From a virus: DNA of 64,000 bases. Location: the IMG/VR virus record IMGVR_UViG_3300031485_000046. One strand, 5' to 3'. Every line of letters begins with the position of its first letter. Position 1 is the first letter of the stretch. A program made the position numbers and the translations under genes. A model generated the notes under the pieces. It searched no databases and had not been told where the DNA came from. It was given only the letters and a program-made list of their open reading frames with translations. Below are positions 17,613-36,321 of the stretch, piece by piece.

Positions 17613-17750
17613 ATGCATACAATGCATGATGCATCCTGCACTATGCATAGTATAAGCGTTCATAGTAGCATTTGATAACATAACACTACACTATTTATTA
17701 CAATTAGACAATATACTACAATATGATAGTGTAGTGTGTATTGTCTATTC

Positions 17751-17794
17751 TATACACTACAATATAGACAAGTATACACTACAATATAGACAAG
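17751..17794. repeat. Tandem 22-bp direct repeat TATACACTACAATATAGACAAG (2 copies), flanked by inverted repeat ACACTACACTAT/ATAGTGTAGTGT
   Basis: Direct read of sequence. Confidence 0.6.
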
Positions 17795-17998
17795 TATAGA
17801 ATAGAGTATAATAATCTATAGTATGCTACACTATATAGCAATATAATATAATAATATATAATTGTATAGTAAAGCAGATACAATTCAATACAATGACTGC
17901 GCTAGTATACAATGCATGATGCATGATGCATCGTACACAATGCATAATGTAAAATCGATTTTACACGTTGCAGAATGCATGCTGGCTCCTGGCCCCCT

Positions 17999-18152
17999 CT
18001 AAAATTGTGACAAATTTTTCTGGATATTAAAATGGGTAATCCATTATTTTCTAAAGCATATTCATTATTTATTCTACGTATCTTTCACACACCCCTCGTA
18101 AAATTGCTACTGATTTTTCCCAATACTAAAGTGGGTAATCCATTATTTTCGA
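17999..18152. repeat. Two copies of about 55-bp element ending in TGGGTAATCCATTATTTTC (promoter-like)
   Basis: Copies at about 17999-18052 and 18094-18150; degenerate third at about 18340-18375. Confidence 0.55.
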
Positions 18153-18674: not shown

Positions 18675-18893
18675 TCATTTCGCCCGCTCCTCCCAGAACC
18701 GTCTGCGTCGCTCCTCCCTGTGACGCTTGATATTCTCCCGCACCCTCTGCGTGCGGGGCGGGAACGTGTTCAGATGGGTCAGCACCGGCTCCACGCTGAC
18801 AGCTCTGCCGAATTCCCTCTCCCATTCCTGGGCGTAGATTTCCTCGTAGGATAACATTTCGCGAAATCTGAGCCCCGTGCATCGTCCGCTCAT
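18675..18893 (-). CDS. Small basic, arginine-rich protein encoded in a GC-rich patch
   Basis: ATG overlaps stop of KdsB-like gene (ATGA); local composition visibly GC-richer than surroundings. Confidence 0.4.
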   Translation of the reverse strand: MSGRCTGLRFREMLSYEEIYAQEWEREFGRAVSVEPVLTHLNTFPPRTQRVRENIKRHREERRRRFWEERAK

Positions 18894-19684
18894 TCCTTAC
18901 CCTCCTTTTTTTCTATAATTTCATCATATTCATTTTCTTTACCAGAGTTTATTATACAACGAACAGCTTCCAAATCAGCAGGAGTATCTACACTAGGTCC
19001 AACTTTTTTTGCTCTTGTTATTTCTACTTTAATGGAAAAATCATGTTCTAATATTCTGAGCTGTTCCAGTGATTCTGCTGATGCCAAAGGTGTTTGTGGC
19101 ATTTTGGCATAATAATGGATTAAGAAACGTCTAGTAAATCCATAAATTCCTATATGTCGGTAGATGGGATATACTTCTTCCGGATCTCTAATAAAAGGGA
19201 TAGGAGACCTACTGAAATATAAAGCATCTCCATTTATTCTGAATGCCACTTTTACTACCGATGGATCATTGATAGTAGCGGTATCTGTAATAAGGGCACA
19301 TATCGTAGCAGATTCCGTAGCCCTATTTTCAGTTTTATAAAATAATGATATTACTTCATCAATCATACAAGGATTAAGTAATGGTTCATCCCCTTGTATG
19401 TTTATCACTATATTATTATTAGAGAATTTTTTAGCTATTTCCACAACTCTACTAGTTCCGTTTGTATGATTTGGAGAAGTTAGCATAGCTTCTCCACCGA
19501 AATTATTTACAGCCTGCACGATTCTTTCATCGTCAGTAGCTACAATCAACCGGTCAAGTAAAGTAGATCGTGAGGCTCGCTCGTACACTCTCTGGATCAT
19601 TGTTTTTCCGCATATATCAGCTAGAGGTTTACCGGGGAGCCTTGTAGAATTGTATCTAGCGGGGATAACTCCTAAAGTTATCAT
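18890..19684 (-). CDS. kdsB: CMP-Kdo synthetase-like cytidylyltransferase (3-deoxy-manno-octulosonate cytidylyltransferase family)
   Basis: IPARYNSTRLPGKPL, VATDDE, GGE, QGDEP, ALYFSR, HIGIYGF, LEQLR, VDTPADLE match KdsB signature blocks as recalled. Confidence 0.85.
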   Translation of the reverse strand: MITLGVIPARYNSTRLPGKPLADICGKTMIQRVYERASRSTLLDRLIVATDDERIVQAVNNFGGEAMLTSPNHTNGTSRVVEIAKKFSNNNIVINIQGDEPLLNPCMIDEVISLFYKTENRATESATICALITDTATINDPSVVKVAFRINGDALYFSRSPIPFIRDPEEVYPIYRHIGIYGFTRRFLIHYYAKMPQTPLASAESLEQLRILEHDFSIKVEITRAKKVGPSVDTPADLEAVRCIINSGKENEYDEIIEKKEGKE

Positions 19685-21095: not shown

Positions 21096-22556
21096 GTGAG
21101 TAGGATAGAAAATATCAGTACCAACGAATTGGTTGGGCAATTACAGCGGATTACAGCTATGGCTGAACTGGCTACAAGAATGAATGTCGGTGCTAGGATG
21201 GGAATGCAGTATGACGGCCAACGGGATATTGCAAAAGCTCTTGGCTACCCACAAACAATACGGTACAACGACCTCCTTGCCGCATATACCCGTCAGGATA
21301 TGGCGAAAGCCATTATAGATCGTCCCGTAAAATCTACTTGGCGTGGAGATTTCAAGCTAGTAGAAACCCACAGGGACGATGATACGCAACTCGAAACAGC
21401 TTGGTCTACATTATATAGGAAATTGCACATAAAACAGAATTTCCTTAGAGTGGACAAGCTAGCCTGCCTCGGTAATTATGCTCTTCTTTTTCTTGGTTTC
21501 AATGATGTGAATAGTCCTGAAGAATTGATACGACCTGTTTCTGCTGGAGTAGGACGTGAATTGCTGTATTTGAAACCGTTTGGACAGAATGTCATTCAGA
21601 TCAAAGATTGGGAAGATGATACAAGTTCACCTGAATATGGAATGCCGCTTATTTATGAAGTAGACATTGGAGAAGCATCATCTAAAAAGAGCCGAACTGT
21701 CAGCATCCATCGGTCAAGGATTGTTCATGTAGCTTTCGACCTACTTGAATCAGAGTATGAAGGTGCTCCTGTTCTAGAAGTTGTTTTTAACCGTCTGAAA
21801 GACCTTGAAAAGCTAGTAGGCGGTTCTGCTGAAATGTTCTGGAGAGGTGCTAGACCTGGATATGCAGGTAAAATTGATCCAGAATACATGCTGACGAAAG
21901 ATACGGAAGAGGGATTGAAACGCCAGCTGGATGAGTTTGAAAATAATCTGCGAAGGATACTCATGCTTGAAGGTGTTACACTCGATAGCCTTGAGCCGCA
22001 GGTAGTTGACCCGTCTATGCACGTTGATATCCAGATTCAGATGATTTCTGCTATTACTGGTATTCCTAAGAGAATTCTTACAGGAAGTGAGCGAGGTGAT
22101 CTTGCTTCTACGCAAGACAAAGATAACTGGCTCGACCTTATCCAAATGCGACGGGAAGAATATGCTGAACCTAAGATCATTCGAGCAACCATTGACCGTT
22201 GTATTGAATTTGGTGTGCTTCCTAAGCCTGAAAAGGAAACATACAAAATAAAATGGCAGGATCTTTATGCACCGTCTGTTAAGGATCAAGCGGACATTGG
22301 GCAGATACGTTCGCTTGCCTTGAAACATTATACGTACAATCCTGAAGCAGAGCAGTTTATCCCGTTTGAAGCGTTCCTTACATTCTTCCTTGGTTTGGAA
22401 GATGAGGAAGTGGAGTATATCAAAAAGCTCCAGCAAACAAGTGAAAGGATATTGACGCCTGAATTAAAGGAACTTGCGAATGAAAATGCACCAACACGGA
22501 GAGAACGCCCTCCGCGGAGAGGAATACCTCGAGAGGATGAAGAACTAGAAAAGTGA
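21096..22556 (+). CDS. Portal protein
   Basis: Size and position (first gene of head module after terminase region); GTG start abuts RBS so true start may be downstream. Confidence 0.75.
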   Translation: MSRIENISTNELVGQLQRITAMAELATRMNVGARMGMQYDGQRDIAKALGYPQTIRYNDLLAAYTRQDMAKAIIDRPVKSTWRGDFKLVETHRDDDTQLETAWSTLYRKLHIKQNFLRVDKLACLGNYALLFLGFNDVNSPEELIRPVSAGVGRELLYLKPFGQNVIQIKDWEDDTSSPEYGMPLIYEVDIGEASSKKSRTVSIHRSRIVHVAFDLLESEYEGAPVLEVVFNRLKDLEKLVGGSAEMFWRGARPGYAGKIDPEYMLTKDTEEGLKRQLDEFENNLRRILMLEGVTLDSLEPQVVDPSMHVDIQIQMISAITGIPKRILTGSERGDLASTQDKDNWLDLIQMRREEYAEPKIIRATIDRCIEFGVLPKPEKETYKIKWQDLYAPSVKDQADIGQIRSLALKHYTYNPEAEQFIPFEAFLTFFLGLEDEEVEYIKKLQQTSERILTPELKELANENAPTRRERPPRRGIPREDEELEK

Positions 22557-22696: not shown

Positions 22697-24121
22697 ATGA
22701 CAACCGCAGTAATCAGTATGTATCAGGTGCAGGCAAATAATTATGAAATTCGTATGGAAACGTACATGGGAAGAAAGCATTTGATCGTTCCTGTAGTGAT
22801 GATGGTAGAAGGTGTGCATTGTGGTAGTGCTGGCCCGTTGTTTCATTCAATAGAAGAGCTTGGTAAGTACCCTGATTCTTGGAATGGAATCCCTGTTTCT
22901 ATTCAGCATCCCGAGCAAGATGGGCAGTATATTTCCGCAAACAGTCCTGAAGTTCTTGAACGGCAGACTGTTGGGCAGGTTTTCAATACGTTTGTTGATG
23001 GAAATAAGCTAAAAGCAGAGTGCTGGATTGACATTGAACGTATTACCACTATTAGTCCAGAAGCATACGCATATCTCCAGAATAAACGACCTCTGGAAGT
23101 GAGTATTGGTGTGTTTTCAGATGATATTCCACAAGAAGGCGATTGGAACGGAGAACATTATATAGCTGTTGCCACCAATCATCGTCCTGATCATCTTGCT
23201 CTTCTTCCTGGTGGCAGAGGTGCGTGTTCCTGGGCAGATGGAGCAGGTATCAGAGCCAATTCTATGAAGAAAGGAGGAGAGCCGGTGGATATTACTGCAA
23301 CGATAAAGGATCTTGTGTGTAAAGGATATGGAGTTCTATCGTATCAGAGTAATGAAGGTTTTCGTTCCATTATGTCGCAGATACAGGATGTGCTCAATGG
23401 GTACGATACGGGTCTAAAACTGCATTATCTGTCGGAAGTATACGAGGATTTTTTCGTATATGAGGTGAATTCTCGTATCAATCCAGAAACCTACATTACA
23501 TCCGTAAAGTATTACAAACGTCCGTATTCTGTTAATGAAGATGGAAAAGTTACGCTGGGAGATGTAGCTACGGAAGTGATGCGCAAAATTGTGTATGATG
23601 AGGTTAAAACTAATTCCAAGTATCGAAGAAAGGATGATGTGAAAGTGGACAAAGCAAAAATGGATATTCTGGTCCAGAGCGGAGTGTTTTCCGAAGCTGA
23701 CCAGGAGTGGCTTACGGGACTCGATGCCGAGCGCCTTGATAAGCTGGTTACTGCTTGCACTAAGAAAGTGGAAACTCCGCAGGCGAATGAGGCGAAAGTG
23801 GATATTCCCACAGTCATTCAGGCACTGGCTGAACAGTTTAAGACTCCTGAGCAGTACATCCAGCTGATGCCGGAAGAAATGCGTGATCAGATGGAATCGG
23901 GACTGAAACTGCACAGGGAACAGCGTCAGGCAGTCATTGACAAGATCAAGGCGTTCAATGTATTTTCGGAAGAAGAGCTTCAGAAAAAATCTATGGATGA
24001 ACTGAACAAGATTTCTAAGCTGATTCCTGCGCCTAGGGATTATTCGCTTGCCGGAGCCAAATCTGTCAATACGAATACGGAAACTGAGGAAGTTCTGCTT
24101 CCTCTCGGGCTGAAAGCCTAA
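22697..24121 (+). CDS. Putative prohead protease/scaffolding protein
   Basis: Position after portal; N-terminal globular domain followed by acidic coiled-coil region; RBS AAAGGAGGTGGTG. Confidence 0.55.
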   Translation: MTTAVISMYQVQANNYEIRMETYMGRKHLIVPVVMMVEGVHCGSAGPLFHSIEELGKYPDSWNGIPVSIQHPEQDGQYISANSPEVLERQTVGQVFNTFVDGNKLKAECWIDIERITTISPEAYAYLQNKRPLEVSIGVFSDDIPQEGDWNGEHYIAVATNHRPDHLALLPGGRGACSWADGAGIRANSMKKGGEPVDITATIKDLVCKGYGVLSYQSNEGFRSIMSQIQDVLNGYDTGLKLHYLSEVYEDFFVYEVNSRINPETYITSVKYYKRPYSVNEDGKVTLGDVATEVMRKIVYDEVKTNSKYRRKDDVKVDKAKMDILVQSGVFSEADQEWLTGLDAERLDKLVTACTKKVETPQANEAKVDIPTVIQALAEQFKTPEQYIQLMPEEMRDQMESGLKLHREQRQAVIDKIKAFNVFSEEELQKKSMDELNKISKLIPAPRDYSLAGAKSVNTNTETEEVLLPLGLKA

Positions 24122-24142: not shown

Positions 24143-24634
24143 ATGGCGTACAATACCATCAAAGTTAAGAAGTATTCGGATGTTATTGAGGAGAAAGTTG
24201 CCAGTGCGGCAATCACTCCGGGTATGCTTCTCATCATTGAAAGTGCAGGTACTGTGAAAGCGCACGATCAGGCGGATAAGGACGCATTTCCTATTTTCGC
24301 ACTTGAGGACGAACTTCAGGGCAAAGGGATTGATGATGCGTATGCAGCGAATGACCCTGTCCAGTGCTGGATTCCCTATCGCGGAGATATTGTGAATGCT
24401 ATTCTCGCTGACGGACAGAAGGTTGTTATTGGGGATCCTCTTACCAGTGATGGCTACGGTCGCCTGAAGAAGCATGTTACCGACGTTGGTGCGTCTGCGG
24501 CTGAACTTGTTTCCGTGTACCCGCTACAGATTGTTGGGTATGCCGCCGAAGCTCTTGACCTGTCTGGTTCTAGCGGAGCCGAAGTTTCAGGCCCTCTCGG
24601 CTATCACAAGCGCCTGCTCGTCAGGATTGCGTAA
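24143..24634 (+). CDS. Putative head decoration protein
   Basis: Small ORF immediately upstream of capsid gene (lambda D-E-like order); RBS AAGGAGGG. Confidence 0.45.
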   Translation: MAYNTIKVKKYSDVIEEKVASAAITPGMLLIIESAGTVKAHDQADKDAFPIFALEDELQGKGIDDAYAANDPVQCWIPYRGDIVNAILADGQKVVIGDPLTSDGYGRLKKHVTDVGASAAELVSVYPLQIVGYAAEALDLSGSSGAEVSGPLGYHKRLLVRIA

Positions 24635-24661
24635 TCACAAACATAAGGAGGAGTGCTGAAT

Positions 24662-25783
24662 ATGGAACCCAATGTCTATATGGATTTTCTTGCTAACGGA
24701 GCGGCTCAGGGAGAAGTTGCCCAGAACCTTCAGGTGAATGGTCGGCTTGATCCTGCTATGCTTCGTCCGTATATTGGAAGGGATGGAGCATCCTACATCA
24801 CCGTCTGCAAACACGGTGCTGATCCCAAGGATCCTAAGAGTTATCAGTCTATCCGCGTGAATTCTGGTGCAACTCTTCGCAGAGAAGAGTGGCAGTATCT
24901 GGACGAGGCTGTTCTCAATGTTTCTCGGTATCGTCTTGGCGGTATTGCTGACCTTGAGGCAAACGGACTTGTTTACAACCTCAACAATGCTATGGGAACC
25001 ACCGTTCTTGAGTACCATGATGTATCTGACGCTTTCGAGGCAGAACTTACGATGGATGGGGTTACTAGGAGCAAGGGAGACCGTGTGAATTTCGGTGCAA
25101 AGTACCTGCCCATTCCTATCATTCATGTGGACTACGAGATTAATGCTCGTGTTCTTGCCGCTTCTCGTAGCCTTGGTAATGCGCTCGATACGACTCAGGC
25201 AGAAGTTGCCGCTCGTAAGGTTATGGAGAAGCTAGAGAAAATGATGTTCACCAGCGAAACTTACTCGTTTGGTGGGGGAACAATCTATTCTCTTGTCAAT
25301 CATCCTCATCGTAATCCTGTTACTCTCACGGTGAATTGGGATGATAGTACGTCTACTTCTTCTGGTGATCCTGTCATTACAGGTGCAAAGATCATTCAGG
25401 ATGTTCTTGCTATGAAGCAGGCAAGCATTGATGCTTACCACTATGGTCCCTGGATGCTATACATTCCGACCGCATACGAAACAGTCCTTGACTCGGATTA
25501 TGATACCGTTACGCCTGGCACTACGATTCGGGAGAGGATTATGAAGATCGAAGGTATCAAAGGTATCAAGGTTATTGATGTACTCGCTTCCAATAACGTG
25601 CTCCTTGTGCAGATGACCCCCGATGTGGTTCGCCTTGTGAAGGGCATGGCTATTCAGAACGTGGAATGGCAGACTGAGGGACGCTTCATCAATAAGTACA
25701 AAGTTATGACGATCCAGGTTCCTCAGGTTCGTTCTGACTACAACCAGAAGAGCGGCATCGTTCATCTCGCTCCTGCACCCTAA
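24662..25783 (+). CDS. Major capsid protein
   Basis: Size and position; ATG 24662 with AAGGAGG RBS. Confidence 0.7.
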   Translation: MEPNVYMDFLANGAAQGEVAQNLQVNGRLDPAMLRPYIGRDGASYITVCKHGADPKDPKSYQSIRVNSGATLRREEWQYLDEAVLNVSRYRLGGIADLEANGLVYNLNNAMGTTVLEYHDVSDAFEAELTMDGVTRSKGDRVNFGAKYLPIPIIHVDYEINARVLAASRSLGNALDTTQAEVAARKVMEKLEKMMFTSETYSFGGGTIYSLVNHPHRNPVTLTVNWDDSTSTSSGDPVITGAKIIQDVLAMKQASIDAYHYGPWMLYIPTAYETVLDSDYDTVTPGTTIRERIMKIEGIKGIKVIDVLASNNVLLVQMTPDVVRLVKGMAIQNVEWQTEGRFINKYKVMTIQVPQVRSDYNQKSGIVHLAPAP

Positions 25784-25830: not shown

Positions 25831-26259
25831 ATGGTTGAAAGTAAGGCAGTAAAGAAAAAGGTAGTAAAGAAAAAGGTTGTTGAAAAGAAAGAACCTGAAA
25901 TTACTACTTCCAAAACTGAGGTGATTACTCCTCAGATTGTTGTTACCCCTCCGGGAATGTGTACATGGAGGAAAAAGGAAGGTGCTACATTCAGGCTTGG
26001 TAATGGTAAGAAAGTAAAGCCGAATGAAGTATTCAAGGCGTATCCTCGTGAAATTCCGCCTGCATTTCGTGACCTGTTTGAATTGCTTGAAGGTGATGAG
26101 AATGCTGTGGAACGAGTGATTACCGCTCCTTCTAAGTTTGCTATTGGTGAACGTGAAGACGGTATGTTTGATGTAGTTGATCCTGATGGTAAGTGTATCA
26201 ATGATGTTCCGCTCGGTAAAGAGGATGCCGAAAAACTGCTTATAGCACTCTCTACTTGA
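25831..26259 (+). CDS. Hypothetical protein with lysine-rich N-terminus
   Basis: RBS AAGGAGG; 142 codons. Confidence 0.6.
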   Translation: MVESKAVKKKVVKKKVVEKKEPEITTSKTEVITPQIVVTPPGMCTWRKKEGATFRLGNGKKVKPNEVFKAYPREIPPAFRDLFELLEGDENAVERVITAPSKFAIGEREDGMFDVVDPDGKCINDVPLGKEDAEKLLIALST

Positions 26260-26263
26260 TACA

Positions 26264-26977
26264 ATGCGGGCGTGGAATACTCCGAGGATATGGGATAAAG
26301 GTGAATGTTGGATAATAGGAGGAGGACCTTCTATTATGCGACAGTTCCATATTCCTGAGAATGTGATTGAGGCGGTTAGAGAAAAAAGATTACCGCTTTC
26401 TGCATATTCTCCGTACATGGAAAGCATTCATTCTAAGCATATCATCGGAGTAAACATGGCATTCCAGCTAGGAAATTGGGTTGATTTTTGTTTCTTCGGA
26501 GACGATGGTTGGTTTCGGGACCATAGAAAAGAATTAGCCCAATTTACTGGTGTAAGGGTATCTTGCGCACCTATGTTCAGTAAAAATACGTACCATGCAG
26601 ATAATGGGGAACGTATTAAGTACCTAGCGCAGGATCCTAAAAAATCACACGGTATTAGTGAAGTACCTTACACCGTATGTTGGAATGCAAATAGCGGAGC
26701 GGCGGCAATCAGCCTAGCTTCTCATCTAGGTGCTAAAAAGATTGTTCTGTTAGGATTCGATATGCAGTTAGATCCTAATGGAAATAGTCATTGGCACAAA
26801 GAGTATCAAATGAATCCAGCAAAACGATCCGTGTTTCCTCGACACCTTAGAGGGTTTCCAATTATCGCCGCGGATGCTAAACGGATGGGCATCGAAATAC
26901 TAAATGCCTCACCTGAAAGCGTAATAGACGATTTTCCTAAAATGACAGTGGAGGCGATATTGAATGGTTCTCCATAA
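26264..26977 (+). CDS. Sialyltransferase-like (CMP-sugar-dependent) glycosyltransferase candidate 1
   Basis: Motifs CWIIGGGPS, SGAAAISLASHLGAKKIVLLGFD, HWHKE resemble GT42/GT29-type and Maf/DUF115-type transferases (recalled). Confidence 0.6.
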   Translation: MRAWNTPRIWDKGECWIIGGGPSIMRQFHIPENVIEAVREKRLPLSAYSPYMESIHSKHIIGVNMAFQLGNWVDFCFFGDDGWFRDHRKELAQFTGVRVSCAPMFSKNTYHADNGERIKYLAQDPKKSHGISEVPYTVCWNANSGAAAISLASHLGAKKIVLLGFDMQLDPNGNSHWHKEYQMNPAKRSVFPRHLRGFPIIAADAKRMGIEILNASPESVIDDFPKMTVEAILNGSP

Positions 26978-27578
26978 AAACAATATCGCGGTTATAGGAC
27001 ACGGTCCTAGCACTCGTGGAAGGAAACTAGGCAGTTTCATTAACCTTTGTGATACGGTCATTCGCATGATCGAATGTGATTGGCAGGATGCAGAAGATTA
27101 CGGTAGTAAATATACGATCGGTGTATATGCTACGGGAGGATCTGACGATTTTACAAAGGTGATTGAACGAAAGCCTTCTCTTTGCTGGTGGGTGTACGTT
27201 GCGGCTGGAACCCGTCCTTCTACGGCGATGAATGATGATACAGTAGATGCTCCAGGTGTTGCGGGTCGTCCGATACGGTGGTTACGAAGAACCGTATGGG
27301 ATTGGATCGGTGATAATAAAAAGTTCTCTAGAGGTACTGCTGCCGCGATTGCGTCTATGGCGATCCTAAAACCCACTACAGTTCATTTAGTTGGGTTTGA
27401 TGATGTTGCAAGGGGTGGAATGCTGAAAGGAGCATATCATCCTCCTGAGTTGCAACAGTACCTCAAAGAACAAGGAAAGACACTTGCCAGAAGTGAAACA
27501 GACCATGATTGGAATAATGAAGGCACCGTACTCCAACGTGCCGCAGACTATTACGGAGTTGAGGTGAATTTTCTATGA
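26964..27578 (+). CDS. Sialyltransferase-like glycosyltransferase candidate 2 (paralogue)
   Basis: Motifs IAVIGHGPS, RGTAAAIASMAILKPTTVHLVGFDD, HDWNNE; RBS GGAGGCG. Confidence 0.6.
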   Translation: MVLHKNNIAVIGHGPSTRGRKLGSFINLCDTVIRMIECDWQDAEDYGSKYTIGVYATGGSDDFTKVIERKPSLCWWVYVAAGTRPSTAMNDDTVDAPGVAGRPIRWLRRTVWDWIGDNKKFSRGTAAAIASMAILKPTTVHLVGFDDVARGGMLKGAYHPPELQQYLKEQGKTLARSETDHDWNNEGTVLQRAADYYGVEVNFL

Positions 27579-28813
27579 AGACAATATCAGAGGAATATAT
27601 TCGCCTTAATTCTGAGGTACACAACCAGCGGAGAGGGTACGGTAATTCAGCCAATCGGTTTGCTAAGGACATTGGGCTTGTTTTGCATCAGTTCCACACA
27701 ATGTCTTTTCTGGATTATGGATGCGGAAAAGAATCTTTGATCCGTTGTATTACGAAGGACTATCCGTATCTTGCCCAGAGAGCAAAGTATGGAGCATACG
27801 ATCCAGCTATACCGCACCGGTCCGTTAAGCCGGAAGAGCAGTATGATATGGTTATTTCTACAGATGTTCTTGAACACATTGAACCTGAATATCTGTCAGC
27901 CGTGCTGGAAGAGATCAAAGGATATGCTAAAAAAGGCGTCTATCTGAATATCTGTATGCGACCGTCAGGAGATATTCTACCTGATGGTCGAAATGCCCAT
28001 CTGATCGTTAAAGATGCCCCGTGGTGGCGTGAAACACTATCCAAAGCGTTTGAAGGATGGGCACTGGAAGAACGGGATGTACTTGACTCTTGGCGCAATT
28101 ATACAGTAGTATTGACACCACCTAAGATTCAAAAGCCATTAAATATCGTCTGTTTCTACTGGAAAGGTACGAGTAATCGGTACCCAGGATGGGACGATGT
28201 GGATTTGGCAAAGATTTATGTCAACAATCTGTATAATGGCGTCCGTCGAAATTTGAACAAGGATTACAAGTTCATCTTGTTTTCCAATGATATTGAAGAT
28301 GGGCTGGATCCACATGTAGAGATACGAAAGTTCCAGCCTATCTCGTGGACAGGGTGCAATCCTAAGTTGTATGTGCATAGCCCAGATGCAGGATTAGAGG
28401 GAAGGGTGCTTACGTTTGATATGGATACTATCATCGTAGGAGACCTTACTAATTTTGCAGAATACGATGGGGCTTTCACTACACGGATGGAACCTGACCG
28501 AAGAAGAGTAACAGCAGGAGACCTGCTAGGATTTGAAGCAGGTGAAACGTACCAGTTATGGGAGAATTATAAGAATATCTCCAAGTATGCTGAAAAGTAT
28601 CAAGGAGATGAAAGGGAGATCTACAAACTTCTTTGGAAACATTTGCTGTACTGGCAAGAAGAAATACCCGGGCAGTTGGTTTCTTATAAAGGTGATGTTC
28701 GTCCTAATCAGAACAGACTGCCTAGAAATGCAAGAATTGTAAGTGCGCACGGTAAGCCTCGTCCGCATGAGATCAATGCGGAATGGATTAAATCGTGTTG
28801 GTGGGGAAAATGA
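27575..28813 (+). CDS. Fusion protein: N-terminal class I SAM-dependent methyltransferase, C-terminal domain of unknown (possibly transferase) function
   Basis: FLDYGCGKESL (motif I-like) and MVISTDVLEHIEP (motif II-like); C-terminal FDMDTIIVGD. Confidence 0.6.
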   Translation: MKTISEEYIRLNSEVHNQRRGYGNSANRFAKDIGLVLHQFHTMSFLDYGCGKESLIRCITKDYPYLAQRAKYGAYDPAIPHRSVKPEEQYDMVISTDVLEHIEPEYLSAVLEEIKGYAKKGVYLNICMRPSGDILPDGRNAHLIVKDAPWWRETLSKAFEGWALEERDVLDSWRNYTVVLTPPKIQKPLNIVCFYWKGTSNRYPGWDDVDLAKIYVNNLYNGVRRNLNKDYKFILFSNDIEDGLDPHVEIRKFQPISWTGCNPKLYVHSPDAGLEGRVLTFDMDTIIVGDLTNFAEYDGAFTTRMEPDRRRVTAGDLLGFEAGETYQLWENYKNISKYAEKYQGDEREIYKLLWKHLLYWQEEIPGQLVSYKGDVRPNQNRLPRNARIVSAHGKPRPHEINAEWIKSCWWGK

Positions 28814-29526
28814 AACCGTATGTAGAATCTCCCATTATCATAACAGGTTGTCCACGAAGCGGAACTAGCATCATTTCTGGGATGTTAGAAATATGTGGTG
28901 CATTTGCAGGAACTATTCCACAGCCTACGAAACACGAAACAAGAGGCATGGGAGAGAATCGGGTTATATATGAGGATGTTGTTAAACCGTATATTCAGAG
29001 TTTGCAAGCGGATCCATCTGGACAATGGCCATTGATGGATTCTGAAAAACTGATGATTCCTATCGACTGGGAATCAATGATTTCAGACGCCTTGCACAAG
29101 GATGGCTATATGGGAGGCAAATGGCTATATAAGAGTAATACTGCGGCTCTTATGTGGAAAGTGTGGTCCTACGCCTATCCTAGCGCCAAATGGGTCCTAG
29201 TACGCAGGCGTACAGGTGACATAGTTTCTTCATGTTTGCAGACCTCGTATATGAAAGCATTCAAAAATCCTGCATATCGTAAGGAAATTGGAGCGGAAAC
29301 AGAATCAGAAGCATGGATCCATTGGGTACATAAGTATGAAGAAGCCTTTGTAGGGATGTTGACTGCGGGAGTTAATTGTAAGGTTGTCTGGCCGGAAAGA
29401 TTCGTAAGAAACGATTATCAACAGTTGTATGAAGTAATTGAATGGGTAGGGCTTGAATGGAAATCTTCTGTAGCAGATTATCTAGACCCAAAGCTATGGA
29501 AGAATGAACGGAAGGAGGAGTGCTGA
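28810..29526 (+). CDS. Sulfotransferase
   Basis: IIITGCPRSGTSIISGML (5'-PSB PAPS-binding motif) and VLVRRRTGDIVSS (3'-PB-like); ATG 28810 overlaps upstream stop (ATGA). Confidence 0.7.
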   Translation: MKPYVESPIIITGCPRSGTSIISGMLEICGAFAGTIPQPTKHETRGMGENRVIYEDVVKPYIQSLQADPSGQWPLMDSEKLMIPIDWESMISDALHKDGYMGGKWLYKSNTAALMWKVWSYAYPSAKWVLVRRRTGDIVSSCLQTSYMKAFKNPAYRKEIGAETESEAWIHWVHKYEEAFVGMLTAGVNCKVVWPERFVRNDYQQLYEVIEWVGLEWKSSVADYLDPKLWKNERKEEC

Positions 29527-29894
29527 TGGCTAGAGTAACTCCAGCGGAAGTAAAATTGATCCTTCCTGATTCTGAACTGACAGATCCTACGATCACTGCG
29601 TTTATCACCAGTGCGAATAATCTGGTAAATGCAGTGCTTACGGATTACTTGACGGAGCCGTTGCTTACCGAAGTAGAAAAATGGCTGACCGCGCACATGA
29701 TTGCTTCTACAGTTGAGAGAATGGCAACTAGGGAAGGTGCCGGCGGTGCAGAAATTTACTACACGGGTAAGTACGGACAGAATCTAACATCCACACCATA
29801 CGGCCAGATGGTGCTGTCGTTAGATCCATCAGGAAGAATGGCGGCTCTCGGTGGCAAGACTGTCACCATGATTGCCATTAAGAATTTTGATTGA
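29527..29894 (+). CDS. Putative head-tail connector/adaptor protein
   Basis: Position and size; ATG 29527 with AGGAGG RBS. Confidence 0.55.
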
Positions 29895-32433: not shown

Positions 32434-35067
32434 ATGGCGATAGGTGGTACTGCTAGTCTTGGAACACTTGTTACCACACTTGGTGTTAATTCAAAACCAC
32501 TGTTGACTGCGGAAAAGCAGGTAGCCACATTTGCTAATAGAACGAATACGTTGATGGCGTCTGTCCGTAGGACAATGATGACCGTATTCGCTACTGTTGG
32601 TGTGGGCCGTCTTGCTAAAGGATTTCTTGATGCCGCCGTATCTGTGGAAAATTACAAAGTATCTTTGAACGCCGTTATCAAGGACGCACAAAAAACGGAA
32701 GCTGTATTCCAAGACCTTTTCAAATGGGCGTCCATCAATCCTATTGATACGGATGATGCTATTAAATCATTTGTTCGTCTGAAAACAGCTGGTGTGGAAA
32801 ATACAAAAGCCGCTGTTGTCGCCGCGGCAGATGCGGCAACAGTTATGCAGAAACCTGTTGAATACGTAGCAAATGCGATGGTTTCTACGAATAATAAGAT
32901 GCTTCGGCAGATAGGTGTACAGCTTGACCGTACAGGTAAAACAGCTATTATCCGAAGTGGTAAAGTACGAATTGAAGTTGAAAAAGATATAGACAAGATC
33001 CGTCAAGGCATTATCGAGGTTCTTCAAAAGAATTTCGGTGGTGCGATGGATGCTTTCAAAAATACCTGGAGAGGTTCTCTGAATACCATGAAAGGTCTTT
33101 GGTGGACTTTCATGGCGGAAGTTATGGGAACAAACAATTCAGGAGGTCCTTATGAAACATTGGTCAAAGGGATAAACAGGGTTCGGGATGCTTGGATAGA
33201 ATGGAGAGAAACTACGGATTATACAGAATTTGTAGCAAATACCCAAGCAGTATTTTCAGCCATGATTGATGGGATGATAAAGGGTATTGAGATGTTAGTA
33301 AAAGGGTTTAAGTGGTTGCTTGATAATCTAGAGATGGTAAAAACAGCGATTATTGTACTTGCAAGTGCGAGAGTGATGGGGCTTCTTATCCGTTCCTTTG
33401 CTCTCCTTCGTACTGAATTAATTGCAGGAAGTGCAGCCACTTCGTTATTTATGAAGGCGATATATGCGCTCAGGCTTGCATTTCTTGAACTACGCACGGC
33501 AAATACAATTTTAGGAGGGCTAAAAGGGGCACTTGCCGCTTTGGGGCTAGGGCCGGGTGGTTTGTTAATCGGAGCAATCGGTGGTTTGGTACTCCTTGCG
33601 GAAAATTTGAAACCTCCGTTCCAAGTTGCGTATGATGAGATTCGCAGATTCAAGCAGGAATTACGCACCATCCCTGTAGACAAGATTAAGGAGATTGTTG
33701 ATCTTAGTTATTCCATGGGTGGGTTTGGGATGGGGGGAAATTATAAAGCCTCCATAGCGCAAGCAGTACAAAATGAAACAGGTAGAACATTGGCTGAAAT
33801 AAAAACACAAGCTGGTAAAATGAAAGCTATGTGGAATTACATGAAGCAAAAAGGGTATGGGGATAAGATATATGTAGAGCCAGAAACAACAGATCAACCT
33901 AGTATGGGCGGCGGTGAATCTAAGTATAAAAAACTCATCCAGCAAATGAAGGATGAGGCAAAATATCTTGGTGCAAACGTACAAGCCTTTCTTCCTATAC
34001 TGGATCAATGGGCATCTAAGATGAAACCTCTTTCTGAGGATTGGAAGCTGATTAAAGATTATGCTGTGGAAATAAGAACAGGAATGGCTAAAGAAGCTGG
34101 GAAAGAAGCCGCTGATACAATGAAACGGCTGGAAGAGCAAATAAAATTGCAAAAGGAAGCGAGAGAAGCGGCGGAACAAGGAGTAGAAAAGTTCTGGAGC
34201 ACCGCGGCTAATGGATTTTCGCAAGGACTTATTAAAGGTCAAGAGTATTTCCAGATGCTCACAAATGAATTTGAAAAATTGAAAGAAGCGGTAAATGCAG
34301 AAGCCGGTGGGTTTTTGAATATGGAAGATATATTCAATTGGACTGAACCGATGTGGACTATATTTTCTGAATTGCAGAGTGTGGGAGGACATCTTGCTAA
34401 TCTTGACCTTACTAGGCTCAACGAGCAGTTGGAAAAAGGGGTTCTTTCTCAAAAAGAGTGGAATGCGGCCGTACAGGAATTACTCGACAAATACTCCGCG
34501 CTTCCTTCTGTCGTGGAACAAGTAAACAACGCTCAGCAAAACACAAAGAAGACCTCCGACGAGTTCGGAATAAGCGCAAAACTCTGGGCGAACGACCTCT
34601 CACAAGGACTTGCACAAGCCATTGTCAACGCCGAAGACCTGGGTGACGCGCTGCGGAATATTGCCAAGTCCATAGCAGGGAGTTTTTTACAAAAGCTCAT
34701 CGGTGGATGGATCGGCGGTTTATTCGCCGACGGCGCGGCCTTTCAAGGCGGGAGCGTCATCCCGTTCGCAAAAGGTGGTATCGTGGGCCGCCCGACAATC
34801 TTCCCTATGGCTCGCGGCATGGGCTTGATGGGGGAAGCTGGCCCGGAGGCGGTCATGCCGTTGACACGGACAGCAGGGGGCGAGCTTGGCGTTAAGGCAG
34901 AGGGTAACGGCAGCGGCGAGATGAATATCACCATGAATATCAACGCCGTTGATAGCCGCTCCTTCGTGGAGATGATGCGGTCGAACAGGGCGAGCGTTGA
35001 AAGCATCGTTGTGGAAAATATTATGAAAAACGGGGCTGTTAGGAGTGCTATGAGGGGGATGGCGTAA
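32434..35067 (+). CDS. Tail tape measure protein
   Basis: 877 codons, hydrophobic segments, position after chaperone pair. Confidence 0.9.
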   Translation: MAIGGTASLGTLVTTLGVNSKPLLTAEKQVATFANRTNTLMASVRRTMMTVFATVGVGRLAKGFLDAAVSVENYKVSLNAVIKDAQKTEAVFQDLFKWASINPIDTDDAIKSFVRLKTAGVENTKAAVVAAADAATVMQKPVEYVANAMVSTNNKMLRQIGVQLDRTGKTAIIRSGKVRIEVEKDIDKIRQGIIEVLQKNFGGAMDAFKNTWRGSLNTMKGLWWTFMAEVMGTNNSGGPYETLVKGINRVRDAWIEWRETTDYTEFVANTQAVFSAMIDGMIKGIEMLVKGFKWLLDNLEMVKTAIIVLASARVMGLLIRSFALLRTELIAGSAATSLFMKAIYALRLAFLELRTANTILGGLKGALAALGLGPGGLLIGAIGGLVLLAENLKPPFQVAYDEIRRFKQELRTIPVDKIKEIVDLSYSMGGFGMGGNYKASIAQAVQNETGRTLAEIKTQAGKMKAMWNYMKQKGYGDKIYVEPETTDQPSMGGGESKYKKLIQQMKDEAKYLGANVQAFLPILDQWASKMKPLSEDWKLIKDYAVEIRTGMAKEAGKEAADTMKRLEEQIKLQKEAREAAEQGVEKFWSTAANGFSQGLIKGQEYFQMLTNEFEKLKEAVNAEAGGFLNMEDIFNWTEPMWTIFSELQSVGGHLANLDLTRLNEQLEKGVLSQKEWNAAVQELLDKYSALPSVVEQVNNAQQNTKKTSDEFGISAKLWANDLSQGLAQAIVNAEDLGDALRNIAKSIAGSFLQKLIGGWIGGLFADGAAFQGGSVIPFAKGGIVGRPTIFPMARGMGLMGEAGPEAVMPLTRTAGGELGVKAEGNGSGEMNITMNINAVDSRSFVEMMRSNRASVESIVVENIMKNGAVRSAMRGMA

Positions 35068-35938: not shown

Positions 35939-36321
35939 TCGGTATTCCGTGGAAGACGAAAGGGCGGGACCGGGACGGGATTGACTGCGTCGGTCTAGCC
36001 CTTCTCGCGCAAAAGGAGCTGTACGGGCGGGAGTATGACTTCCCATTTGACTACGACCCGGAGACGGGGGATGAGCGCGTTTTGCTCGACTGGCTGGAAG
36101 ACATAGCTGATGAAGTGGACATACCGCAGAATGGAGACCTGGTGATTTATCGGATGCCGGGAATTGACGGGATTGTAAAACATCACATCGGTACGGTCGT
36201 TGGCGAGGCATTGTTGCACATTTATCCGGGGAAGAGTTCTCGGAAGGTGAAAATCAGGATGAAACGGATCTACAAAATCTACCGGGCGAAGGAGGTGGAG
36301 ACATGCCGGGAGCGGCAATAG
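35935..36321 (+). CDS. Tail assembly protein K-like (NlpC/P60 peptidase fold)
   Basis: GIDCVGLALL (Cys) and HHIG (His) motifs; start at internal ATG 35935. Confidence 0.7.
   Translation: MIGIPWKTKGRDRDGIDCVGLALLAQKELYGREYDFPFDYDPETGDERVLLDWLEDIADEVDIPQNGDLVIYRMPGIDGIVKHHIGTVVGEALLHIYPGKSSRKVKIRMKRIYKIYRAKEVETCRERQ

What the first reader, a model, noticed from the sequence alone, without database searches (positions are those of the whole stretch)
27575..28813. Methyltransferase fusion protein in the modification cluster
The N-terminal roughly 170 residues carry class I SAM-methyltransferase motifs (FLDYGCGKESL, MVISTDVLEHIEP). The C-terminal roughly 230 residues form a second domain with an FDMDTIIVGD segment that could be a DxD-type nucleotide-sugar transferase. 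A two-domain enzyme inside a capsid operon suggests sequential modification of one substrate.
Basis: partly seen in the sequence, partly recalled or inferred. Interest (0 to 1): 0.55.

Follow-up and report, generated by a model that had tools for sequence, protein, structure and literature searches.

The report
Phage methyltransferase-glycosyltransferase fusion in capsid operon
One phage gene between the capsid and head-tail connector genes encodes a protein with a methyl-adding half and a sugar-adding half. It belongs to a small sugar-decoration cassette that most likely coats the virus particle with a methylated, sulfated glycan. That idea is proven in mycobacteriophages and algal viruses, but the enzyme combination and the phage group here are new.

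Summary
ORF 27575-28813 (+, 412 aa) is real, carries all three quoted motifs and has homologues from 98% down to about 30% identity.

Residues 1-181 are a class I SAM methyltransferase (Pfam Methyltransf_23 above its cut-off, methyltransferase fold). Residues 189-412 are a GT-A glycosyltransferase with an invariant D282-x-D284 and a C-terminal H392-G-x-P-R-P-H398 motif. Its best fold matches are glycogenin-type GT8 enzymes. It has no Pfam family, but it is homologous to coliphage P1 PmgQ.

The gene is joined by ATGA overlaps to its neighbours. These are two Maf/CstII-like sialyltransferase-type genes upstream and a sulfotransferase downstream. A phage CMP-Kdo synthetase (KdsB) lies 8 kb upstream.

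In 26 related uncultured siphophage loci the same frame holds: MCP, p142, Maf-like enzyme, variable island, GT8-like enzyme, sulfotransferase, connector. The island is 0.5-4.9 kb. It carries other methyltransferases, extra sulfotransferases, APS kinase and sugar-nucleotide enzymes. In some relatives the two halves are separate adjacent genes, in either order.

Best reading: a bifunctional glycan-building and glycan-methylating enzyme of a late-expressed virion glycosylation cassette. The substrate is inferred, not shown. This is a new variant of a known kind.

The parts
27575..28813 (+). Fusion gene: SAM methyltransferase plus GT-A (GT8-like, PmgQ-family) glycosyltransferase, 412 aa
   Evidence: ORF; homologues; AlphaFold model pLDDT 93.2; Foldseek PDB and BFVD
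27575..28117 (+). Methyltransferase domain, aa 1-181. Motif I FLDYGCGKESL at 27707-27739; D76; MVISTDVLEHIEP at 27848-27886; LPDGRNAHL aa 135-143
   Evidence: Pfam PF13489 31.2 bits vs 27; phrog_24759 2e-19; invariant residues; fold matches 3mcz, 2r3s, TehB, DhpI
28139..28810 (+). GT-A glycosyltransferase domain, aa 189-412. D282-M-D284 within 28415-28444; H392-G-K-P-R-P-H398-E at 28748-28771
   Evidence: phrog_1962 4.5e-21; glycogenin/Gat1/GlyE/ABO fold matches; invariant columns; hhalign to P1 PmgQ prob 98.8; no Pfam family
26264..26977 (+). ST1: Maf/CstII-type (sialyltransferase-fold, DUF115-like) transferase, 237 aa. The most conserved enzyme of the cassette
   Evidence: phrog_4603 3.7e-34; AlphaFold pLDDT 92.9; Foldseek Maf 5mu5 6e-6, CstII 1ro8 1.4e-5, ST8SiaIII; hhalign to P1 PmgO prob 99.2
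26964..27578 (+). ST2: putative second sialyltransferase-type enzyme, 204 aa (weak assignment). Its stop overlaps the fusion gene's ATG (ATGA)
   Evidence: Shares the GxGPS and AAAI...L.GFD motifs with ST1; Glyco_transf_29 E 0.022; hhalign to ST1 profile only local; ATGA overlap
28810..29526 (+). PAPS-type sulfotransferase. Probable ATG at 28810 overlaps the fusion gene's stop (ATGA); the mechanical ORF starts at GTG 28795
   Evidence: Pfam Sulfotransfer_3 44.7 bits vs 27; GCPRSGTS and RRRTGDIVSS motifs in the translation; overlap; follows the GT8-like gene in 45 of 86 loci
25831..26259 (+). p142: conserved Lys-rich protein of unknown role between MCP and ST1
   Evidence: No family; homologue at the same position in 16 loci
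24653..25783 (+). Major capsid protein, the candidate acceptor. Lineage-specific Ser/Thr-rich insertion STSTSSGDPVIT at aa 232-243
   Evidence: DUF6260 8e-23, phrog_771; alignment of 26 MCPs; densest S/T window among the structural proteins
24143..24634 (+). Head decoration protein, an alternative candidate acceptor
   Evidence: phrog_766 5e-16
18890..19684 (-). KdsB, CMP-Kdo synthetase. A possible donor supply for the sialyltransferase-type enzymes
   Evidence: PF02348 1.5e-56; NCBIfam NF003952 287 bits vs 193 and TIGR00466 212 vs 155
29520..29894 (+). DUF4054 head-tail connector, the downstream boundary of the cassette
   Evidence: PF13262 24.2 bits vs 23.9; follows the sulfotransferase in 37 loci

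Best explanation
The gene encodes a soluble bifunctional enzyme. Its C-terminal GT-A domain is GT8-like and belongs to the family of coliphage P1 PmgQ. Using a metal held by D282-x-D284 and H392/H398, it would transfer a sugar from a nucleotide sugar onto a growing glycan. By analogy with GT8 this is probably a UDP-hexose transferred with retention, but that step is inferred. Its N-terminal class I SAM methyltransferase domain would then methylate that glycan. The enzyme is one step of a late, translationally coupled cassette: p142, a Maf/CstII-type transferase, a second such enzyme, this fusion, and a PAPS sulfotransferase. A phage CMP-Kdo synthetase lies nearby. The cassette is inserted between the major capsid protein and head-tail connector genes. 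It most likely builds a methylated and sulfated O-glycan on virion proteins (capsid or decoration protein) in the cytoplasm. Shown here: domain identities, conserved catalytic-type residues, gene order and its conservation, and the split or fused state of the two modules in relatives. Inferred: donor, acceptor, order of steps, and that the target is the virion.
For: Domain identities rest. The two modules appear to work together. They are fused in the window clade (P0001-P0011; L001, L002-4, L091). They are separate, overlapping adjacent genes as MT then GT in L050 and as GT then MT in L060. The methyltransferase domain is a habitual partner of glycan enzymes: among the 120 best homologues, 64 are fused to PF01973 (Maf/DUF115-like), 11 to the GT-D fold (PF08759), 3 to FkbM and 1 to GT2. 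Translational coupling is shown by ATGA overlaps at both ends, and the operon shows no excess of promoter or terminator sites. The frame MCP, p142, ST1, variable island, GT8-like, sulfotransferase, connector recurs in 26 loci whose MCPs are 37-87% identical by tblastn. The variable island carries Methyltransf_24 methyltransferases (17 loci), extra sulfotransferases, APS kinase, GT-D+MT fusions, GT2, a B12-radical SAM enzyme, a PseB-like dehydratase, a DegT aminotransferase and a sugar N-formyltransferase. That is a glycan pathway with its own PAPS and sugar-nucleotide supply. The related Brevundimonas phage MaInes lacks the cassette, with MCP followed directly by small structural genes, so the cassette is an insertion. 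None of the cassette enzymes has a transmembrane segment. Homologues in other phages also sit in late or structural modules: before the tail tube in L002, after a tail protein in CcrBL9, and in the P1 late operon LPpmgL. Two precedents exist. Mycobacteriophages Che8, Corndog and Myrna glycosylate capsid and tail-tube proteins with their own GTs (PMC12363180, PMC11256854), and Corndog carries an O-methyltransferase plus GTs between portal and protease. Chlorovirus A064R fuses GT domains to a methyltransferase that methylates the sugar just added to the capsid glycan (PMC9614988).
Against: No direct evidence shows that any virion protein is glycosylated, and the phage is uncultured. The C-domain has no Pfam or PDB sequence-level match, so donor and stereochemistry rest on fold analogy. 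GT8 enzymes and CstII also build LPS/LOS cores, and Kdo is an LPS sugar, so a host-envelope target fits the same enzyme set. Morons are also commonly inserted in structural modules, so position alone is not proof. P1 pmgO and pmgQ are dispensable for plaque formation, which neither supports nor excludes a virion role. The link between KdsB and the cassette is only co-residence in one genome; no KdsB relative was found in IMG/VR phage contigs. The methyltransferase could act on a non-sugar group.
Confidence: 0.6

Rival explanations
1. The cassette, including this fusion enzyme, remodels a host envelope glycan rather than the virion. The target would be the LPS/LOS core or a capsule precursor at the cytoplasmic face of the inner membrane. 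The purpose could be to mask the receptor on infected cells and debris, or to exclude other phages.
For: GT8 is the family of LPS-core transferases, and the best non-Maf match of ST1 is CstII, an LOS sialyltransferase. The phage carries KdsB, the enzyme that activates the LPS sugar Kdo, and its nearest named relatives are bacterial (Synergistota). The hypervariable content of the island resembles O-antigen loci. Morons often sit inside structural modules.
Against: The cassette occupies a fixed slot between MCP and connector in 26 loci and is translationally coupled to structural genes. The window shows no integrase or lysogeny functions and has a full replication module, so envelope remodelling late in a lytic cycle would bring little benefit. 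No flippase, polymerase, ligase or membrane-anchored component is present. ST1's top fold match is Maf, a protein O-glycosyltransferase. The experimentally proven precedent for MT+GT genes in a phage head module is virion glycosylation (PMC12363180).
Confidence: 0.2
2. The two domains do not act on one glycan. The methyltransferase methylates a protein side chain, for example on a capsid or tail protein, or a small molecule. Its fusion to the glycosyltransferase only ensures co-expression.
For: Class I methyltransferases of the Methyltransf_23/11/12 type are chemically promiscuous. The closest folds are small-molecule O-methyltransferases, TehB and DhpI. Methylation of phage tail proteins is known to matter, by a host enzyme in mycobacteriophages (PMC13445384, abstract seen).
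Against: This methyltransferase domain is fused to four different kinds of glycan enzyme in at least 79 of the 120 best homologues. It sits next to the GT8-like gene in either order when unfused. In relatives without it, a different methyltransferase (Methyltransf_24, TylF-like sugar O-methyltransferase type) occupies the cassette, as in Corndog. Methylation is thus a conserved function of the glycan cassette.
Confidence: 0.1
3. The cassette hypermodifies phage DNA, for example by glycosylating a modified base, rather than proteins.
For: The window also carries 7-deazaguanine pathway genes (QueC, a YhhQ/Vut_1-type transporter). Phage GTs that glycosylate DNA bases are known (10.1101/2023.12.21.572611, PMC13326640, listed).
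Against: DNA-modification genes cluster with replication genes. Here they lie on the opposite strand 15-35 kb away, while the cassette sits inside the head operon. Sulfotransferases, Maf-like transferases, APS kinase and sugar N-formyltransferases have no known role in DNA modification. No base-flipping or DNA-binding domain was detected.
Confidence: 0.04

Closest known systems
Chlorovirus PBCV-1 A064R (three-domain rhamnosyltransferase/rhamnosyltransferase/methyltransferase acting on the Vp54 capsid N-glycan)
   Same: A virus-encoded, soluble, multi-domain protein that joins a GT-A, DXD, Mn-dependent retaining glycosyltransferase domain to a class I SAM methyltransferase. The methyltransferase methylates the sugar the GT part has just added, and the product decorates the major capsid protein (PMC9614988).
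   Different: A064R is from a eukaryotic giant virus. Its domain order is GT-GT-MT, against MT-GT here, and it has three domains rather than two. Its GT-A domain is GT34-like rather than GT8/PmgQ-like, and its product is an N-glycan. Homology between the proteins was not tested, so the resemblance is functional and architectural.
Mycobacteriophage virion glycosylation genes (Che8 gp110, Corndog gp35-gp38, Myrna)
   Same: Phage-encoded GTs glycosylate capsid and tail-tube proteins (Freeman et al. 2023, as summarised in PMC12363180 and PMC11256854). In Corndog a TylF/Methyltransf_24 O-methyltransferase, a GT2-like and a GT25-like gene sit inside the head module between portal and protease.
   Different: The GT families differ: hhalign of the C-domain profile against Corndog gp38 finds nothing. 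There is no fusion, no sulfotransferase, no Maf-like enzyme and no KdsB. The hosts are Actinobacteria and the insertion slot differs.
Coliphage P1 PmgQ and PmgO (P7 HdmD), 'putative morphogenetic function'
   Same: PmgQ is a true homologue of the C-terminal domain (hhalign prob 98.8, E 1.4e-16, with DLD and HGKPRP conserved). PmgO is a homologue of the neighbouring ST1 (prob 99.2, E 9e-20). Both lie in a late operon next to tail and baseplate genes.
   Different: P1 has no methyltransferase domain on PmgQ and no adjacent sulfotransferase. The function in P1 is untested, and both genes are non-essential by CRISPRi (PMC10695390).
GT8 retaining glycosyltransferases (glycogenin, Skp1 alpha-galactosyltransferase Gat1, pneumococcal GlyE)
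   Same: GT-A fold with the best Foldseek matches (E 3e-8 to 4e-7, TM-score on the target 0.39-0.61). There is a DxD after the central strand and a C-terminal His-containing motif; P0025 and P0027 even read FHGEPKPW.
   Different: No sequence-level match to Pfam Glyco_transf_8 or to any PDB chain. The family signature VCFYW...YVNxLYxGV...SYK...HGxPRPHE is its own.
Caulobacter jumbo phage methyltransferases (CcrBL9 gp523 and relatives)
   Same: The closest cultured-phage relative of the N-terminal domain, at 42-44% identity over aa 2-160. It lies in a gene row that begins with an ST1-like 'sialyltransferase' after a tail protein.
   Different: It is a stand-alone methyltransferase not fused to a GT, and no GT8-like or sulfotransferase gene was recognised in that row.
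Maf flagellin glycosyltransferases / CstII sialyltransferase (for the neighbouring gene ST1)
   Same: They are the best fold matches of ST1, and ST1 has the conserved GGGPS and NSGAAA...LLGFD motifs. Maf transfers CMP-activated nonulosonic acids to Ser/Thr of a self-assembling structural protein.
   Different: ST1 is only 237 aa, the catalytic core alone. The Pfam MptE-like hit is below its cut-off, and donor and acceptor are unknown.

Membership tests
Class I SAM-dependent methyltransferase (Pfam Methyltransf_23, PF13489) | Profile score at or above the curated gathering cut-off | tested here: met
   31.2 bits vs 27, aa 39-129; phrog_24759 E 2e-19
Class I SAM-dependent methyltransferase (Pfam Methyltransf_23, PF13489) | Rossmann-like methyltransferase fold | tested here: met
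   AlphaFold model pLDDT 93.2; Foldseek hits 3mcz, 2r3s, TehB 2xvm, DhpI 3ou2, RPA2492-SAM 3e23, all prob 1.00
Class I SAM-dependent methyltransferase (Pfam Methyltransf_23, PF13489) | Glycine-rich motif I and an acidic residue after strand 2 for SAM binding | tested here: met
   L46-D47-Y-G49-C-G51 and D76 invariant in 24/24 homologues; D97/E100/H101 also invariant
Class I SAM-dependent methyltransferase (Pfam Methyltransf_23, PF13489) | SAM binding and methyl transfer | not testable with these tools
   Needs a purified-protein assay
CAZy GT8 / Pfam Glyco_transf_8 (PF01501) | Sequence-profile membership | tested here: not met
   No Pfam hit for the domain or for 16 homologues, even at E 10. 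The profile of 17 sequences finds no GT in PDB sequences
CAZy GT8 / Pfam Glyco_transf_8 (PF01501) | GT-A fold closest to GT8 structures | tested here: met
   Glycogenin 3v91 E 3.1e-8, Gat1 6mw5 TM-score on target 0.61, GlyE 5gvv, glycogenin-2 4ueg; BFVD 'Glycosyl transferase, family 8' TM-score on target 0.71
CAZy GT8 / Pfam Glyco_transf_8 (PF01501) | DxD metal/nucleotide-sugar motif | tested here: met
   D282-x-D284 in 32/32 sequences, also in P1 PmgQ
CAZy GT8 / Pfam Glyco_transf_8 (PF01501) | C-terminal His of the HxxGxxKPW-type motif completing the metal site | tested here: inconclusive
   H392-G-x-P-R-P-H398 is nearly invariant, and FHGEPKPW occurs in P0025/P0027. No residue-level structural superposition was available to confirm equivalence
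CAZy GT8 / Pfam Glyco_transf_8 (PF01501) | Retaining mechanism with a UDP-sugar donor | not testable with these tools
   Needs an enzymatic assay and product NMR
PHROG 1962 / P1 PmgQ family of phage glycosyltransferase-like proteins | Profile match over the whole domain | tested here: met
   phrog_1962 E 4.5e-21, aa 218-409 on profile positions 16-222 of 230; hhalign to PmgQ prob 98.8; tblastn hits to P1, P7 and SJ46
Phage virion-glycosylation systems (Che8/Corndog type) | Phage-encoded GT genes (with a methyltransferase) embedded in the structural/late module | tested here: met
   Corndog comparison
Phage virion-glycosylation systems (Che8/Corndog type) | Homology to the GTs shown to be required (Che8 gp110 / Corndog gp38) | tested here: not met
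   hhalign of the A2 profile against Corndog gp38: probability 0.06; the Pfam families differ (GT25/GT2-like)
Phage virion-glycosylation systems (Che8/Corndog type) | Glycans covalently attached to capsid or tail proteins | not testable with these tools
   Needs MS of virion or co-expressed proteins
A064R-type viral multi-domain GT-methyltransferase | GT-A DXD domain and class I methyltransferase in one polypeptide encoded by a virus | tested here: met
   A064R as described in PMC9614988
A064R-type viral multi-domain GT-methyltransferase | Sequence homology and the same domain order as A064R | not tested
The domain order described (GT-GT-MT) differs from MT-GT here

The most novel reading that the evidence does not exclude
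A large, environmentally widespread clade of uncultured siphophages wraps its capsid in a phage-made O-glycan, and more distantly P1-like and Caulobacter jumbo phages may do likewise. In this reading a Maf-like enzyme initiates the glycan with a CMP-activated ulosonic acid (here Kdo, supplied by the phage's own KdsB). The PmgQ-type GT extends it, and it is then methylated and sulfated. The 0.5-4.9 kb variable island between the conserved Maf-like and GT8-like genes would act as a serotype-like locus under diversifying selection. This would be the first sulfated or Kdo-containing glycan on any phage particle, and it would give the 'putative morphogenetic' P1 genes pmgO and pmgQ a function.
Probability: 0.3. 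Interest if true: 0.8.

Novelty: new variant of a known kind. Interest (0 to 1): 0.55.

Why it matters
Self-glycosylation of phage particles has been demonstrated only for a few mycobacteriophages, where it shields virions from antibodies, and for giant algal viruses. This locus indicates that the same strategy exists in phages outside the actinobacteriophages. It uses a different and richer chemistry: a sialyltransferase-fold enzyme, a GT8-like enzyme, methylation, sulfation, and in relatives a dedicated supply of PAPS and sugar nucleotides. It also has the conserved-frame, variable-content architecture typical of surface-antigen loci. The fusion protein is direct Rosetta-stone evidence that glycosyl transfer and methylation are coupled. 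Homologues of two core enzymes sit in the model phage P1 (PmgO, PmgQ), so the hypothesis can be tested in a standard laboratory system. Surface glycans would affect adsorption, mucus or particle adherence, immune recognition of therapeutic phages, and virion stability.

Tried and rejected
- **PDB sequence searches.** Searches with the whole protein, the 17-sequence C-domain profile, ST1 and the sulfotransferase gave only noise. Only fold comparison linked the C-domain to GT8.
- **Pfam and NCBIfam.** A Pfam scan of the C-domain and 16 homologues at E 10 found no glycosyltransferase family. NCBIfam gave only sub-threshold methyltransferase hits.
- **Locus search.** The search for related loci with the mixed alignment A1 failed because it has no conserved stretch. 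It worked with the C-domain alignment A2.
- **KdsB.** A search for KdsB relatives in IMG/VR found none, so I could not test whether KdsB travels with the cassette.
- **Host assignment.** KdsB's nearest named relatives are Synergistota. A contig with 98%-identical ST1 is binned in a Mariniphaga (Bacteroidota) MAG, and other bins are taxonomically scattered. The one long 'genomic' hit (L090, a 2.4 Mb contig) holds only a truncated copy of the head module.
- **Literature.** The primary paper on mycobacteriophage glycosylation (PMC10527164) is not held, so I relied on citing papers. Searches for phage sulfotransferase/capsid glycans and for phage KdsB found nothing relevant.
- **Corndog.** Corndog gp38 is not homologous to the C-domain.
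- **ST2.** ST2 could not be firmly tied to ST1 beyond two short motifs.
- **RNA genes.** No tRNA or Rfam element is present in the window.
- **Rejected readings.** A structural-protein role for the C-domain is rejected because all fold matches are enzymes. An inactive GT is rejected because the DxD and His motifs are invariant. A DNA methyltransferase is rejected because no such family or fold hit appears.
Full report
**1. The observation**

The window holds an ATG-initiated ORF at 27575-28813 on the + strand, 412 aa. A search of the 5.8-billion-protein collection found 1818 relatives at E <= 0.001. Full-length two-domain homologues occur at 98, 85, 85, 81, 75, 68, 65, 58, 52, 38 and 34% identity (P0001-P0011), with three more near 30%. 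This is a real, conserved gene.

The window as a whole is an uncultured siphophage genome:
- large terminase 12119-13714;
- portal 21096-22556;
- protease/scaffold 22697-24121;
- decoration protein 24143-24634;
- major capsid protein (MCP) 24653-25783;
- DUF4054 connector 29520-29894;
- tail terminator, tail tube, tape measure 32434-35067 and a J-like fibre 36303-39773;
- a replication module on the minus strand.

No cultured phage has a close MCP relative; the best is Brevundimonas phage MaInes at 34%. No cultured phage has the two-domain protein: none of 48 records covers 80% of the query.

**2. The two domains**

An AlphaFold2 model built on a 40-sequence alignment is confident (pLDDT 93.2, pTM 0.88). 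It shows two alpha/beta domains, 1-181 and 189-412.

*N-terminal domain.*
- It passes Pfam Methyltransf_23 (31.2 bits against a cut-off of 27) and matches phrog_24759 'methyltransferase' at 2e-19.
- Foldseek matches it to O-methyltransferases (3mcz, 2r3s), TehB, DhpI and a SAM-bound methyltransferase (3e23).
- L46-D47-x-G49-x-G51 (motif I), D76, D97/E100/H101 and D137-G138-x-N140 are invariant or nearly so in all 24 aligned methyltransferase domains.

*C-terminal domain.*
- It matches phrog_1962 'glycosyltransferase' (4.5e-21).
- It has no Pfam family, even at E 10, for itself or 16 homologues.
- It has no sequence-level match in the PDB.
- Its fold matches retaining, DxD-type GT-A enzymes: glycogenin (3v91, E 3.1e-8), the Skp1 alpha-galactosyltransferase 6mw5 (TM-score on the target 0.61), GlyE, glycogenin-2 and the ABO transferases. 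Among viral models it matches a 'Glycosyl transferase, family 8' of an uncultured phage (TM-score on the target 0.71).
A second signature, H392-G-x-P-R-P-H398, is nearly invariant. In two distant homologues it reads FHGEPKPW, the classical GT8 form.

I therefore call this domain GT8-like by fold and motifs, but not a sequence-level member of PF01501.

**3. Do the two halves work together?**

Three lines of evidence say yes.
- The same two modules occur as separate, overlapping neighbouring genes. In L050 the order is MT (181 aa) then GT (196 aa), between ST1 and the sulfotransferase. In L060 the order is ST1-like, GT, MT. Fused here and split elsewhere in both orders is the classical Rosetta-stone pattern.
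- This particular methyltransferase domain is a habitual partner of glycan enzymes. Among the best 120 homologues, 64 are fused to PF01973 (MptE/DUF115/Maf-like), 11 to the GT-D fold, 3 to FkbM-type methyltransferases and one to a GT2.
- In relatives that lack it, a different methyltransferase follows ST1. This is a Methyltransf_24 enzyme of the TylF sugar-O-methyltransferase type, found in 17 loci. Methylation is thus a conserved function of the cassette that is filled by non-orthologous enzymes.

**4. The neighbourhood in the window**

The fusion gene's ATG overlaps the stop of the upstream gene (ATGA at 27575-27578). Its own stop overlaps an ATG at 28810, which is the likely true start of the downstream gene. 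Promoter-like and terminator-like sites in the operon are no more frequent than in shuffled sequence.

*Upstream: ST1 (26264-26977).*
- It matches phrog_4603 'alpha-2,3-sialyltransferase' at 3.7e-34.
- Its AlphaFold model (pLDDT 92.9) matches the Maf flagellin glycosyltransferase best (5mu5, E 6e-6, TM-score on the query 0.57). Next come the sialyltransferase CstII (1.4e-5) and ST8SiaIII.

*Upstream: ST2 (26964-27578).* It shares only the GxGPS and AAAI...GFD motifs with ST1 and has a weak GT29 hit. This assignment is tentative.

*Downstream: the sulfotransferase.* It hits Pfam Sulfotransfer_3 (44.7 bits against 27). A PAPS 5'-phosphosulfate loop (GCPRSGTS) and a 3'-phosphate motif (RRRTGDIVSS) are visible in the translation.

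*p142 (25831-26259).* This Lys-rich protein of unknown function lies between the MCP gene and ST1.

None of these proteins has a membrane-spanning segment.

*KdsB (18890-19684, opposite strand).* Eight kilobases upstream the phage encodes a bona fide CMP-Kdo synthetase (PF02348 1.5e-56; NF003952 287 bits against 193; TIGR00466 212 against 155). CMP-activated ulosonic acids are the donors of Maf and sialyltransferase-type enzymes. This is a plausible donor supply, but the link is inferred from co-residence only.

**5. Relatives**

A scan of IMG/VR with the C-domain profile found 157 relatives, of which 80 loci were kept. Window proteins were compared with all 86 loci then held:
- 45 loci have the sulfotransferase directly after the GT8-like gene;
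- 37 have the connector after that;
- 39 have an ST1 homologue upstream;
- 26 have, in the same order, MCP (37-87% identity by tblastn), ST1, GT8-like gene and sulfotransferase.

In those 26 loci the distance from ST1 to the GT8-like gene varies from 506 to 4890 bp. Clustering and Pfam scans of the intervening ORFs show:
- a second tandem GT8-like paralogue in many loci;
- Methyltransf_24 methyltransferases, once fused to a sulfotransferase;
- extra Sulfotransfer_3 and Sulfotransfer_2 genes;
- APS kinase in three loci;
- GT-D + Methyltransf_23 fusions and GT2;
- a B12-binding radical SAM enzyme;
- a Polysacc_synt_2 (PseB/CapD-type) dehydratase;
- a DegT aminotransferase with a sugar N-formyltransferase.

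This is a glycan-biosynthesis island with a conserved frame and variable content, including its own PAPS and sugar-nucleotide supply. The window's version is a compact one. It holds no APS kinase, Methyltransf_24 or sugar-nucleotide genes. The methyltransferase is fused to the single GT8-like domain. L001 (81% identity), L091 and others have exactly the window's architecture.

The related phage MaInes has no cassette, and its MCP gene is followed directly by small structural genes. The cassette is therefore an insertion into an ancestral MCP-connector junction.

More distant homologues are also in late or structural modules:
- In L002-4 the fusion follows a GT29-like protein and directly precedes the tail-tube gene.
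- In Caulobacter phage CcrBL9 a 44%-identical methyltransferase lies in a row that starts with an ST1-like gene after a tail protein.
- In coliphage P1 the late operon pmgL-pmgV contains PmgO and PmgQ. PmgO is an ST1 homologue (hhalign prob 99.2, E 9e-20). PmgQ is a homologue of the C-domain (prob 98.8, E 1.4e-16, DLD and HGKPRP conserved).
- PmgO and PmgQ are still annotated 'putative morphogenetic function' and are non-essential by CRISPRi (PMC10695390).

**6. Mechanism**

*Shown here:* a soluble bifunctional protein with an intact SAM-methyltransferase site and an intact DxD/His GT-A site. It is co-translated with a Maf/CstII-fold transferase, a second putative one and a PAPS sulfotransferase, inside the head operon.

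*Inferred:*
- The Maf-like enzyme(s) attach a CMP-activated ulosonic acid, possibly Kdo from the phage KdsB, either to Ser/Thr of a virion protein (as Maf does on flagellin) or to a glycan.
- The GT8-like domain adds a hexose from a UDP-sugar with retention of configuration.
- The methyltransferase domain O-methylates the glycan, and the sulfotransferase sulfates it.
- The order of these steps is unknown.

The most likely acceptor is the MCP or the decoration protein. The MCPs of cassette-bearing phages share an NWD(D/A)-S(A/S)(K/T) loop, which MaInes lacks. In the window and L001 this loop carries an eight-residue insertion that creates STSTSSGDPVIT. That is the most Ser/Thr-dense 12-mer among the structural proteins examined. 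This is suggestive only.

**7. Rivals**

- *Host LPS/LOS or capsule remodelling.* This is the main rival. GT8 enzymes and CstII build LOS/LPS cores, and Kdo is an LPS sugar. Against it: the fixed structural slot, the translational coupling, the absence of lysogeny functions and of membrane components, and the experimentally proven precedent. I give it 0.2.
- *A methyltransferase acting on a non-glycan target:* 0.1.
- *DNA hypermodification:* 0.04. The phage does have 7-deazaguanine genes, but they lie elsewhere.

**8. Comparison with what is known**

- Functionally the closest proven case is chlorovirus A064R. It fuses a retaining DXD GT-A domain, a second GT and a class I methyltransferase that methylates O-2 of the rhamnose just added to the capsid N-glycan (PMC9614988).
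- Among phages, Che8, Corndog and Myrna glycosylate capsid and tail-tube proteins with their own GTs (PMC12363180, PMC11256854).
- I verified that Corndog carries a TylF/Methyltransf_24 O-methyltransferase, a GT2-like gene and a GT25-like gene between portal and protease. Its gp38 is not homologous to the domain studied here.

The kind of system (virus-encoded capsid glycosylation, with glycosyl transfer coupled to methylation) is therefore known. The new elements are:
- the enzyme families (PmgQ-type GT8-like domain, Maf-like transferase);
- this particular fusion;
- the sulfotransferase and PAPS arm;
- the possible Kdo donor;
- the hypervariable-island architecture;
- the phage group.

**9. 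Verdict**

The finding is a new variant of a known kind. Interest is moderate for the fusion protein alone. It is higher for the cassette it belongs to, chiefly because of the testable link to P1 PmgO/PmgQ. Overall score 0.55.

Noticed in passing
window 18890-19684 (-): The phage encodes KdsB (CMP-Kdo synthetase), above the NCBIfam equivalog and subfamily cut-offs. Its nearest named relatives (56-64% identity) are from Synergistota. It lies in a 7.4 kb stretch between terminase and portal that otherwise holds only small ORFs of unknown function on both strands.
   Followed up: partly
window 61597-62436 (-) and 46440-47090 (-): QueC (7-cyano-7-deazaguanine synthase, PF06508 1e-55) and a Vut_1/YhhQ-type queuosine-precursor transporter (1.7e-53). 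The phage probably carries 7-deazaguanine DNA modification.
   Followed up: no
L006, L008, L011, L012, L017, L027, L033, L035, L036, L038, L040 (between the ST1 and GT8-like genes): Related phages have a 0.5-4.9 kb hypervariable glycan island in the same slot. It carries APS kinase, extra sulfotransferases, a sulfotransferase-Methyltransf_24 fusion, GT-D+MT fusions, GT2, a B12-radical SAM enzyme, a PseB-like dehydratase, DegT and a sugar N-formyltransferase. Several protein families there have no annotation (259 aa and 301 aa).
   Followed up: partly
L108 (coliphage P1, NC_005856: pmgO 79592-80254, pmgQ 81449-82150): P1 'putative morphogenetic' proteins PmgO and PmgQ are clear homologues of the Maf-like ST1 and of the GT8-like domain. 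This suggests an untested glycosylation function in a model phage. Both are dispensable by CRISPRi.
   Followed up: partly
window 25831-26259 (+): p142 is a Lys-rich protein (KAVKKKVVKKKVVEKK at the N-terminus) with no family. It is conserved at the same position between MCP and ST1 in at least 16 related loci, and its role in the cassette or capsid is unknown.
   Followed up: no
window 24653-25783, MCP aa 232-243: A Ser/Thr-rich eight-residue insertion (STSTSSGDPVIT) is specific to the window and L001. It lies in a loop that reads NWDD-SAK/SAT in other cassette-bearing phages and is absent from the cassette-less Brevundimonas phage MaInes.
   Followed up: partly
window 55511-57355 (-) and 57319-58590 (-): The family A-type DNA polymerase (phrog_17) is split into two overlapping ORFs covering the N-terminal and C-terminal parts of the profile. 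This could be a split gene, a frameshift or a sequencing error.
   Followed up: no
window 14000-18000: A low-GC stretch (0.33-0.35, against 0.42-0.47 in the head module) with only short ORFs, no tRNA and no Rfam match.
   Followed up: partly
L090 (GCA_900198705.1 contig FZPS01000013.1, 708667-729371): A 2.4 Mb assembled contig carries portal, protease, decoration, MCP, a 159-aa protein, ST1 and a 210-aa protein of a related phage. It then breaks off into unrelated genes. This is either a decayed prophage fragment or a chimeric assembly; the organism was not identified.
   Followed up: no
window 28795-28813: The mechanical ORF for the sulfotransferase starts at GTG 28795. An ATG at 28810 forms an ATGA overlap with the stop of the fusion gene and is the more likely start.
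   Followed up: yes
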